Shown here in pieces: positions 27,729 through 28,403 of a stretch of DNA of 29,348 bases. This DNA is from a virus. The translations under genes were made by a program, and so were the position numbers. The notes beneath the pieces are model-generated. The model saw only the letters and a list, made by a program, of their open reading frames with translations. It was not told the origin of the DNA and made no database searches. Positions within the stretch are counted from its first letter, which is position 1. Each line of letters opens with the position of its first letter. The stretch is from UHGV virus genome UHGV-0299458, one strand, 5' to 3'.

Positions 27729-28403
27729 ATGAAAAACACTATCAGCGAACGTATTCGGAATCGTCGAAAAGACGTTGGATTAACCCAACAGCAGGTTGCG
27801 AAAGCAATCGGCATATCTCGTGTATCCGTAACAAAATGGGAAAATGGCTCTTCAAAACCTGACGGTGAGAATTTGTATCTACTGTCAAAATTGCTTTCCA
27901 AATCTCCTGAATGGATTCTTTATGGAAAGGACTGTCACGATAAAACCGATGATCTGCGTCTGAATCAGTACCCTTACATTAGTGACAACATCGCCCGGTT
28001 GCCCGTTTTAACGTGGGAACAGGCTGGTTATTGGGATATGAGTTGTCCAGTAACCAAGATTCCTGGTATTAATAACTGGGTTGATGTCATGACAAAAACC
28101 GCTGAAAACTCTTTTTTATTGCATGTTGAGGGAGATGCGATGACAAACTCTAACGGCCTCCCAACCATCCCCGACGGATCTACCGTGCTGATCACACCAT
28201 GCTCAAGTAACATTAGAGAACTGGTGGGAAAAATAATCTTAATCCAATTGGAAGGAACGCCAAACGTAACACTAAAAAAAGTTGCGATTGACGGACCAAA
28301 CATCTATTTGTTGTCACTGAATCCGCTTTACAAACCCATCGAACTGAATGGTGGTTACACCATTAAAGGTAAAGTTTCACAAATACATCAATACTTAGAC
28401 TGA
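27729..28403 (+). CDS. cI: CI-like prophage repressor (XRE-family HTH plus S24 LexA-like peptidase domain)
   Basis: MKNTISERIRNRRKDVGLTQQQVAKAIGISRVSVTKWENGSSKPDGENLYLLSKLL..., C-terminal ...LLHVEGDAMTNSNG...KKV.... Start taken at 27729, directly abutting the operator; the ORF track extends to 27630. Confidence 0.85.
   Translation: MKNTISERIRNRRKDVGLTQQQVAKAIGISRVSVTKWENGSSKPDGENLYLLSKLLSKSPEWILYGKDCHDKTDDLRLNQYPYISDNIARLPVLTWEQAGYWDMSCPVTKIPGINNWVDVMTKTAENSFLLHVEGDAMTNSNGLPTIPDGSTVLITPCSSNIRELVGKIILIQLEGTPNVTLKKVAIDGPNIYLLSLNPLYKPIELNGGYTIKGKVSQIHQYLD

What the first reader, a model, noticed from the sequence alone, without database searches (positions are those of the whole stretch)
28126..28140. 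CI repressor S24 peptidase domain has Ala where the catalytic Ser is expected (GDAM instead of G(D/N)SM)
The LexA-like C-terminal domain reads ...LHVEGDAMTNSNG.... Lambda CI, LexA and UmuD have the nucleophilic Ser in this motif (EGNSMT in lambda CI). Here the codon is GCG (Ala), one base from TCG (Ser). If this is the catalytic position, the repressor cannot undergo RecA-stimulated self-cleavage, so the prophage would be SOS-non-inducible (ind- like) or need an antirepressor. The downstream Lys is present in LKKV.
Basis: partly seen in the sequence, partly recalled or inferred. Interest (0 to 1): 0.55.

Follow-up and report, generated by a model that had tools for sequence, protein, structure and literature searches.

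The report
Prophage repressor with dead protease site
A lambda-type prophage repressor carried by about one in eight E. coli genomes has alanine in place of the serine it would need to cut itself after DNA damage, so by inference the prophage cannot be woken by the usual SOS route; no induction or cleavage data were found.

Summary
Codon 151 of the repressor gene (GCG, window 28137-28139) encodes Ala. It aligns with the nucleophilic Ser of lambda CI (S149), LexA (S119) and UmuD (S60). The Ala-Gly scissile bond (A113-G114) and the general-base Lys (K197) are intact.

It is not an error or decay:
- All 683 E. coli genomes that match a 61-mer around the codon lack the TCG version, and 681 carry the identical 61-mer.
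- Two Ala alleles have diverged to dS 0.75 in the C-terminal domain, yet dN/dS there is 0.06.
- The module sits at three attachment sites with three different head modules.
- A sister E. coli allele (about 84% nt) keeps Ser (TCA). A Salmonella clade again has Ala (GCA). More distant relatives have Ser. The site therefore changed at least twice.

Among 125 related full-length repressors, 22 lack the Ser.

No LexA box or recognisable antirepressor was found in the prophage. None of 50,697 sequenced phage records carries this repressor.

Best reading: a natural ind-minus type CI that still binds its three GTAAC-N4-GTTAC operators but cannot self-cleave. This is inferred from established biochemistry, not tested here. 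Interest is moderate: a new variant of a known kind.

The parts
27687..28403 (+). CI-type immunity repressor gene as annotated (238 aa, identical to WP_000103685.1). The real start is probably M15 at 27729 (224 aa).
   Evidence: ORF list and translation. Identical protein annotated as 'LexA family protein'. AlphaFold2 (AF2) model has pLDDT below 50 for residues 1-15. An operator lies inside codons 10-14. Some homologues and database entries start at M15.
27753..27917 (+). N-terminal helix-turn-helix DNA-binding domain (residues 23-77)
   Evidence: Pfam HTH_3, E 3.8e-17. P22 C2 N-terminal domain, E 1e-12. Foldseek TM 0.95 to 3jxb.
28002..28376 (+). C-terminal S24 (LexA/CI/UmuD-type) domain (residues 106-230): fold intact, nucleophile missing
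   Evidence: Pfam Peptidase_S24, E 2.1e-16. Foldseek to lambda CI C-terminal domain, TM 0.76-0.82. AF2 pLDDT mostly 81-91 over this domain, with dips to 65-76. dN/dS 0.06.
28137..28139 (+). Codon 151, GCG = Ala, at the position of the catalytic Ser nucleophile
   Evidence: Alignments. Fixed in the E. coli genomes examined. The sister allele has TCA.
28023..28028 (+). Codons 113-114, GCT GGT = Ala-Gly, equivalent to the scissile bond of lambda CI (A111-G112)
   Evidence: Conserved in all Ala- and Ser-type alleles.
28275..28277 (+). Codon 197, AAA = Lys, equivalent to the general base K192 (lambda) and K156 (LexA)
   Evidence: Invariant column. Conserved in all alleles.
27667..27680 (.). Operator GTAACAATAGTTAC between the cro-like gene and the repressor gene
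   Evidence: Three exact matches to GTAAC-N4-GTTAC; 0.41 expected even with one mismatch allowed, and 0 of 100 shuffles reached 4 matches. Same site at the same offset in Ala- and Ser-type loci.
27715..27728 (.). Operator GTAACATTGGTTAC, directly upstream of the ATG at 27729
28478..28491 (.). Operator GTAACTCTTGTTAC downstream of the repressor gene. It overlaps a TTGACT (28466-28471)-17-TACCTT (28489-28494) promoter-like site for the ydfA-ydfB-ydfC...dicB operon.
   Evidence: Operator. The promoter was read by eye only and was not reported by the consensus scan.
27422..27637 (-). Divergent cro-like gene (P22_Cro family)
   Evidence: Pfam E 7.5e-15.
27000..27425 (-). ydaT-like gene (described as a CII equivalent in PMC9986795), downstream of cro
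   Evidence: Pfam YdaT_toxin, E 2.8e-10. Title and abstract of PMC9986795.
28676..29209 (+). Early-left operon genes ydfA (DUF1391), ydfB and ydfC, downstream of the third operator
   Evidence: Pfam DUF1391. RefSeq annotation of the identical locus.
29210..29348 (+). Left end of an IS1A copy inserted just after ydfC. It cuts the operon off from dicB, exo, xis and int.
   Evidence: Annotation of L003. The same junction is uninterrupted in L001.

Best explanation
This is the immunity repressor of a lambda-type prophage. Its N-terminal helix-turn-helix domain binds three GTAAC-N4-GTTAC operators. Two lie between the repressor gene and the divergent cro-like gene. One lies over the promoter of the ydfA...dicB early-left operon. 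Binding keeps the lytic genes and the toxic early genes off.

The C-terminal domain keeps the full LexA/CI fold, the Ala-Gly scissile bond and the catalytic Lys. The Ser nucleophile is replaced by Ala, so the protein cannot carry out RecA-stimulated self-cleavage. The domain is most likely retained for dimerisation and cooperative operator binding, as in lambda CI.

The prophage is therefore not directly inducible by the SOS response through repressor autoproteolysis. It is a natural equivalent of a lambda ind-minus lysogen.

Shown here: the position of the Ala, its fixation, purifying selection on the domain, the operators, and the absence of a recognisable cis antirepressor. Inferred: loss of cleavage, the role of the C-terminal domain, and non-inducibility.
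For: - Ala151 aligns with lambda S149, LexA S119 and UmuD S60, and K197 and G114 fall in invariant columns. A family profile also matches LexA and UmuD chains.
- The best fold match is lambda CI (3bdn, E 7e-11; C-terminal domain TM 0.76-0.82).
- GCG is present in all 683 E. coli genomes that match the 61-mer, and no TCG version exists. All 15 listed members of the E. coli/E. albertii cluster and all 15 of the Salmonella cluster have Ala; all 15 of the sister cluster have Ser.
- For two Ala alleles (window against P0002), the C-terminal domain has dN 0.043, dS 0.75 and dN/dS 0.058. The N-terminal domain gives 0.087, and a Ser-Ser pair gives 0.10. The domain is therefore still constrained after loss of the Ser.
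- The module occurs at potC, ompW and a yccA-side site, with three different capsid/terminase modules.
- No CTGT-N8-ACAG site above chance was found. The best CTG-N10-CAG site in the whole prophage matches the LexA consensus at 13 of 20 positions.
- No antirepressor appears in the annotation or in a PHROGs scan of ten hypothetical proteins.
- None of 50,697 phage records encodes a repressor more than 43% identical, although the gene is in 702 of 5,426 complete E. coli genomes.
Against: - No experiment on this protein or prophage was found.
- Retention of the Ala-Gly site and the Lys would also fit a protein that is still a cleavage substrate. With dN/dS of 0.06 over the whole domain, however, their retention is not special.
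- The rare Ser-type sister allele is also absent from isolated phages, so that absence is not specific to the Ala form.
- The Ala:Ser ratio in complete genomes (about 693:8) is inflated by over-sampled clones such as ST131.
- Small antirepressors can be unrecognisable by sequence.
Confidence: 0.75

Rival explanations
1. The repressor is cleavage-dead, but the prophage is still inducible. An antirepressor binds and inactivates the repressor, as in Gifsy prophages, 186 Tum, N15 AntC or the small-protein modules of Silpe et al. (PMC10432266). The antirepressor would be encoded by a co-resident prophage or by an unrecognised small gene of this one.
For: Non-autoproteolytic repressors paired with antirepressors are common (PMC10432266; PMC2669165). 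The prophage carries many small genes of unknown function. The module spreads between prophage backbones, which suggests that at least some carriers are viable phages.
Against: No LexA box, no annotated antirepressor and no antirepressor PHROG among ten hypothetical proteins. The gene content of Ala-type and Ser-type loci around the switch is the same, so no extra gene accompanies the Ala form.
Confidence: 0.2
2. The Ala form is a substrate-only repressor. It keeps the scissile bond and is cut in trans by a Ser-bearing S24 protein: a homoimmune Ser-type repressor, another CI, LexA or UmuD.
For: The Ala-Gly site and the Lys are strictly kept in all Ala alleles. Ser- and Ala-type alleles share the same operators and nearly the same C-terminal domain, so mixed oligomers are plausible. 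From my own knowledge, intermolecular cleavage of LexA/CI and of UmuD has been shown in vitro (Kim and Little 1993).
Against: The Ser-type sister is in only 8 of 5,426 complete genomes, and at most 2 genomes carry two copies of this gene family, so a partner is normally absent. From my own knowledge, trans-cleavage of CI/LexA is slow. The whole domain is conserved, so conservation of these residues needs no special explanation.
Confidence: 0.05
3. The Ala is a sequencing error, or a recent inactivating mutation in a decaying cryptic prophage, and has no biological meaning.
For: This particular prophage copy carries an IS1 insertion and a few pseudogenes.
Against: The codon is identical in 681-683 independent genomes. 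It has persisted across dS 0.56-0.75 with dN/dS about 0.06-0.12. It is also present in an IS1-free prophage copy with integrase, excisionase, lysis, terminase and capsid genes annotated and in Salmonella and E. albertii.
Confidence: 0.01

Closest known systems
Lambda CI repressor, and its laboratory ind-minus mutants at the catalytic site
   Same: Same two-domain architecture (HTH plus S24 fold) and best sequence and fold match. Same motif VEG-x-S/A-MT, Ala-Gly site and Lys. Same divergent cro-like gene and operators at both early promoters.
   Different: Only about 24-28% identical. The DNA-binding domain is closer to P22 C2. The Ser is naturally Ala and is fixed in a large wild population rather than selected in the laboratory. 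The neighbouring genes are of the ydaS/ydaT and ydfABC-dicB type, not cII and N.
LexA S119A (and other Ser-to-Ala LexA mutants)
   Same: The same substitution at the same catalytic position of the same fold. Such mutants are listed among solved structures (1jhh, 1jhc, 6a2s, 8s7g).
   Different: Those are engineered host SOS repressors. This is a wild prophage repressor.
Naturally non-cleavable prophage repressors (Gifsy, 186, P2, N15; Sakai Sp4/6/9/10)
   Same: The expected phenotype is the same: no RecA-stimulated autoproteolysis. Sp6, Sp9 and Sp10 are reported as not inducible by mitomycin C (PMC2669165).
   Different: Those repressors lack the peptidase domain altogether, and several rely on a LexA-controlled antirepressor. 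Here the domain is complete and constrained, only the nucleophile is changed, and no antirepressor or LexA box was found.
Ser-type sister repressor of E. coli (WP_024173670.1; P0003 cluster)
   Same: 86-87% amino-acid identity, same operators at the same offsets, and same flanking genes.
   Different: It has Ser (TCA) at position 151 and is about 85 times rarer among complete E. coli genomes.

Membership tests
Peptidase family S24 (LexA / lambda CI / UmuD self-cleaving proteins) | S24 beta-rich fold | tested here: met
   Pfam PF00717, E 2.1e-16, 60.1 bits against a cut-off of 23.3. Foldseek to lambda CI and LexA C-terminal domains.
Peptidase family S24 (LexA / lambda CI / UmuD self-cleaving proteins) | Ser nucleophile in the G-x-S-M motif | tested here: not met
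   Ala151 lies in the column of lambda S149, LexA S119 and UmuD S60. By this criterion the protein is a non-peptidase homologue of the family.
Peptidase family S24 (LexA / lambda CI / UmuD self-cleaving proteins) | General-base Lys | tested here: met
   K197 is in an invariant column with K192, K156 and K97.
Peptidase family S24 (LexA / lambda CI / UmuD self-cleaving proteins) | Ala-Gly (or Cys-Gly) scissile bond in the linker-proximal strand | tested here: met
   A113-G114 aligns with lambda A111-G112.
Peptidase family S24 (LexA / lambda CI / UmuD self-cleaving proteins) | RecA-stimulated or alkaline self-cleavage | not testable with these tools
   This needs biochemistry. It is predicted to be absent.
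Lambdoid CI/C2 immunity repressors | N-terminal Cro/CI-type helix-turn-helix | tested here: met
   HTH_3, E 3.8e-17. P22 C2 N-terminal domain, E 1.3e-12.
Lambdoid CI/C2 immunity repressors | Divergent cro-like gene, with repeated palindromic operators at both early promoters | tested here: met
   A P22_Cro gene lies 49 bp away on the other strand. Three exact GTAAC-N4-GTTAC sites are present, conserved in position in five of six related loci.
Lambdoid CI/C2 immunity repressors | Sits in a prophage with integrase, replication, lysis and morphogenesis genes | tested here: met
   Annotation of L001, L003 and L014.
Non-cleavable repressor plus LexA-controlled antirepressor systems (Gifsy, 186 Tum, N15 AntC type) | Antirepressor gene in the prophage under a LexA box | tested here: not met
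   One CTGT-N8-ACAG match, at chance level and inside the lysis region. The best site matches the 20-mer consensus at 13 of 20. No antirepressor in the annotation or in a PHROGs scan of ten hypothetical proteins. An unrecognisable or trans-encoded antirepressor is not excluded.

The most novel reading that the evidence does not exclude
Position 151 works as an evolutionary on/off switch for SOS inducibility. The rest of the catalytic apparatus (Ala-Gly site, Lys, fold) is kept intact under purifying selection. A single T/G transversion at the first codon base then converts an inducible phage repressor (Ser) into a non-inducible one (Ala), and back.

The site has changed at least twice in this family, and always between Ser and Ala. 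The Ala state is the one that accumulates in bacterial genomes (about 693 against 8 complete E. coli genomes). A prophage that cannot be induced by SOS does not kill its host after DNA damage, and it still gives immunity against the homoimmune Ser-type phage.

A more speculative extension is that the Ala form remains a substrate and is cleaved in trans when a Ser-type relative superinfects.
Probability: 0.2. Interest if true: 0.65.

Novelty: new variant of a known kind. Interest (0 to 1): 0.45.

Why it matters
Prophage induction by DNA-damaging antibiotics drives host lysis, gene transfer and toxin release, and annotation pipelines label this protein simply as a LexA-family or S24-peptidase repressor. 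If the Ala form is truly non-cleavable, a prophage module found in about 13% of complete E. coli genomes, including ST131 and STEC lineages, would be wrongly predicted to be SOS-inducible.

The case also gives a clean natural experiment. Two homoimmune alleles differ at the nucleophile. That allows a direct test of whether loss of inducibility is selected at the level of the host, and of what the S24 domain does when it is no longer a protease.

In the small survey here, 22 of 125 related full-length repressors lacked the Ser. Nucleophile loss may therefore be a common and overlooked route to SOS-independent lysogeny.

Tried and rejected
- **LexA boxes.** The strict pattern gave one chance-level hit in the lysis region. 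A scored CTG-N10-CAG scan of the whole 49-kb prophage locus gave nothing better than 13 of 20. A 10/20 site near the cro leader (27645) is not conserved in related loci, so it was rejected as chance.
- **Antirepressor search.** The RefSeq annotation and PHROGs on ten hypothetical proteins found none.
- **Consensus scan around the gene.** It reported no promoter and missed the hairpin after the repressor gene. The promoter and terminator given in the report are therefore my own reading and are marked as such.
- **Literature.** Seven searches found nothing on this protein, its accession, or a natural Ser-to-Ala CI. Only background on repressors lacking the peptidase domain turned up.
- **Isolated phages.** I looked for an isolated phage with this repressor to learn about inducibility. 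The closest is 43% identical.
- **Sequencing error or pseudogene.** Rejected on the population data and on dN/dS.
- **An alternative nucleophile.** From my own knowledge, LexA S119A is inactive, and the motif is otherwise identical to that of the Ser-type sister, so this is unlikely. It was not tested.
- **Tree.** The neighbour-joining tree supports the Ala E. coli clade only at 65%, and several support values were lost on rerooting. I rely only on the statement that any topology needs at least two Ser/Ala changes.

Full report
**1. What is in the sequence**

The ORF at window 27687-28403 (+) encodes 238 residues containing ...LHVEGDAMTNSNG.... In this frame Ala151 is GCG at 28137-28139, one transversion from TCG. 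The finding's interval 28126-28140 covers the motif but is one base off the codon boundaries.

Pfam finds an HTH_3 domain (residues 23-77, E 3.8e-17) and a Peptidase_S24 domain (residues 106-230, E 2.1e-16).

**2. Is the Ala at the catalytic position?**

Yes, on four lines of evidence.
- phmmer against solved structures gives lambda CI (3bdn) as the best hit. It aligns VEGDAMT with VEGNSMT, EQAG with VQAG, and TLKKV with TFKKL.
- A profile of 22 family members also reaches LexA and UmuD chains.
K197 falls in an invariant column with K192, K156 and K97. G114 falls in an invariant column with G112, G85 and G25.
- An AlphaFold2 model built from the family alignment has two confidently folded domains. 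Residues 1-15 and the linker 84-99 are disordered. Its best PDB fold match is lambda CI, with C-terminal domain TM 0.76-0.82.

So the nucleophile is missing, while the scissile Ala-Gly and the general-base Lys are present.

**3. Is it more than a one-off?**

- The gene is in 702 of 5,426 complete E. coli genomes: 614 at 99% identity or more and 80 at 95-99%.
- A 61-mer centred on the codon is identical in 681 of 683 matching genomes. The same 61-mer with TCG has no exact match. One of the two variant records was read, and it differs at H146R, not at codon 151. A 96.4% allele (strain C8) and the ST131 allele (MNCRE44) also read GCG.
- All 15 listed members of the 90% cluster (E. coli and E. albertii) have GDAM.

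**4. Relatives**

| Allele | Origin | Identity to window | Residue 151 (codon) |
|---|---|---|---|
| Window; P0001 (97% aa) | E. coli | reference | Ala (GCG in window) |
| P0002 | E. coli | 88% aa | Ala (GCG) |
| P0003; O178:H19 allele (L002) | E. coli | 86-87% aa; L002 83.5% nt | Ser (TCA) |
| P0005 | Salmonella | 68% aa | Ala (GCA) |
| P0006 | metagenome-derived contig (organism not given) | 65% aa | Ser (TCG) |

More distant relatives (Hamiltonella, Arsenophonus, Erwinia and others) have Ser, apart from P0020 (Arsenophonus nasoniae), whose motif is degenerate.

Each state is uniform within its cluster. It is 15/15 Ser in the P0003 cluster and 15/15 Ala in the Salmonella cluster. All alleles keep Ala-Gly and Lys-Lys, apart from one Val-Gly member in Salmonella.

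A neighbour-joining tree places the clades as (((Ser E. coli, Ala E. coli), Ala Salmonella), Ser P0006), with Ser outgroups. Support for the Ala E. coli clade is modest at 65%. On any topology at least two Ser/Ala changes are needed: either two losses, or a loss followed by a reversion. No other residue was seen at this site within this group.

**5. Selection**

| Comparison | Region | dN | dS | dN/dS |
|---|---|---|---|---|
| Window vs P0002 (both Ala) | C-terminal domain | 0.043 | 0.75 | 0.058 |
| Window vs P0002 (both Ala) | N-terminal domain | 0.046 | 0.53 | 0.087 |
| L002 vs P0003 (both Ser) | C-terminal domain | 0.026 | 0.26 | 0.10 |
| All pairs | Linker | | | 0.3-1.0 |

The S24 domain is therefore as constrained without its nucleophile as with it. 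This argues for a retained non-catalytic role. The obvious candidate, by analogy with lambda CI, is dimerisation and cooperative operator binding. That is an inference, not a result.

**6. The switch around it**

A P22_Cro-family gene lies divergently at 27422-27637 and is followed by a ydaT-type gene.

The pattern GTAAC-N4-GTTAC occurs exactly three times in the window, at 27667, 27715 and 28478. Even allowing one mismatch, 0.41 matches are expected. The same sites recur at the same offsets in Ala-type and Ser-type loci. The two forms should therefore be homoimmune.

The third site overlaps a TTGACT-17-TACCTT promoter-like sequence ahead of ydfA-ydfB-ydfC. That sequence follows a hairpin plus T-run after the repressor gene. 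Both were read by eye, and the consensus scan reported neither.

**7. The prophage**

The window equals L003:12001-41348. It is a lambda-type prophage at potC with lambda-like head and tail genes. An IS1A copy sits just after ydfC, and there are a few pseudogenes.

The identical repressor also sits in an IS1-free prophage at potC with a different head module. Close alleles sit at ompW in ST131 and in a bovine strain, with a third head module. The 88% Ala allele sits at a third attachment site. The module is therefore mobile between backbones and is not merely a clonal relic.

**8. How could it be induced?**

- No LexA box was found. The strict pattern gave one chance-level hit, and the best scored site in the whole prophage matches 13 of 20.
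- No antirepressor appears in the annotation or in a PHROGs scan of ten hypothetical proteins.
- Co-residence with the Ser-type sister is rare. The sister is in 8 complete genomes, and at most 2 genomes carry two copies. Trans-cleavage by the sister therefore cannot be the general route.
- None of 50,697 phage records encodes a repressor more than 43% identical. This fits poor inducibility but is not specific to the Ala form.

**9. How common is nucleophile loss?**

A scan of 1.84 billion representative proteins gave 996 hits at E below 1e-10. At the nucleophile position 103 have Ser, 11 have Ala, 6 have Thr and 5 have something else. The 11 Ala entries include the query and three members of its own group. 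Six other 50%-identity clusters show a clear G/N-D-A-M motif. Most of those have also lost the Ala-Gly site, unlike the present family.

Loss of the nucleophile is therefore recurrent among CI-like repressors. I found no paper describing it for this protein, or as a general feature of lambdoid repressors. [quoted passage not shown]

**10. Verdict**

The most likely mechanism is a natural ind-minus type CI: operator binding is intact and self-cleavage is abolished. The prophage would then not be directly SOS-inducible (confidence about 0.75). A trans-acting antirepressor is the main addition that cannot be excluded.

It is a non-peptidase homologue within family S24 and a genuine lambdoid immunity repressor. 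I rate it a new variant of a known kind, with moderate interest of 0.45. The main open point is whether the Ser/Ala alternation is an adaptive switch of inducibility.

Noticed in passing
window 29209/29210-29348 (and L003:41209-42000): An IS1A copy is inserted directly after the ydfC stop codon. It separates ydfABC from the rest of the early-left operon (a hypothetical gene, dicB, DUF1482, exonuclease, xis, int). In this strain the prophage may be defective for excision even if derepressed. The same junction is uninterrupted in strain 203740 (L001).
   Followed up: partly
window 27687-27731: The annotated 238-aa start is probably wrong. The operator GTAACATTGGTTAC (27715-27728) lies inside codons 10-14, the AlphaFold2 model has pLDDT below 50 for residues 1-15, and several homologues and database entries start at M15 (27729; 224 aa). 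The ATG directly follows the operator, so the transcript may be leaderless, as for lambda cI from PRM. This is speculation.
   Followed up: partly
window 28411-28494: The hairpin CCCGCA-TTCAT-TGCGGG plus six T (28411-28433) follows the repressor gene. After it comes TTGACT (28466-28471)-17-TACCTT (28489-28494), overlapped by the third operator. This looks like a terminator followed by a repressor-controlled pL-type promoter for the ydfA...dicB operon. It was read by eye; the consensus scan did not report either.
   Followed up: no
proteins P0010-P0014 and P0016 (alignment A1): Relatives from Arsenophonus and Symbiopectobacterium keep the Ser and Lys but have Ile/Val/Leu-Ser where Ala-Gly should be. 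This is either a different way of losing cleavage or an unusual scissile bond. P0020 (Arsenophonus nasoniae) has a fully degenerate motif (PDDKTD).
   Followed up: no
window 16838-18334 and 21330-21501: Accessory ('moron') genes and RNA elements sit between the late and early regions: an IraM anti-adapter gene (16838-17173, +), sRNA STnc100 (17199-17388, -), a tRNA cluster Arg-Arg-Ile (18088-18334, -), and a hokD/sok toxin-antitoxin locus (sok at 21330-21501, -).
   Followed up: no
L001, L003, L014, L016, L007: The same immunity module (repressor, cro, ydaT, operators) is joined to three different capsid/terminase modules. It sits at three attachment sites (potC, ompW, and a site next to yccA/tusE). 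This is a clear case of lambdoid mosaicism around a conserved switch.
   Followed up: partly
survey of representatives: Six related 50%-identity clusters have Thr at the nucleophile position (for example NGDTMV and PDDTMT). Whether Thr can act as a nucleophile in this fold was not examined.
   Followed up: no
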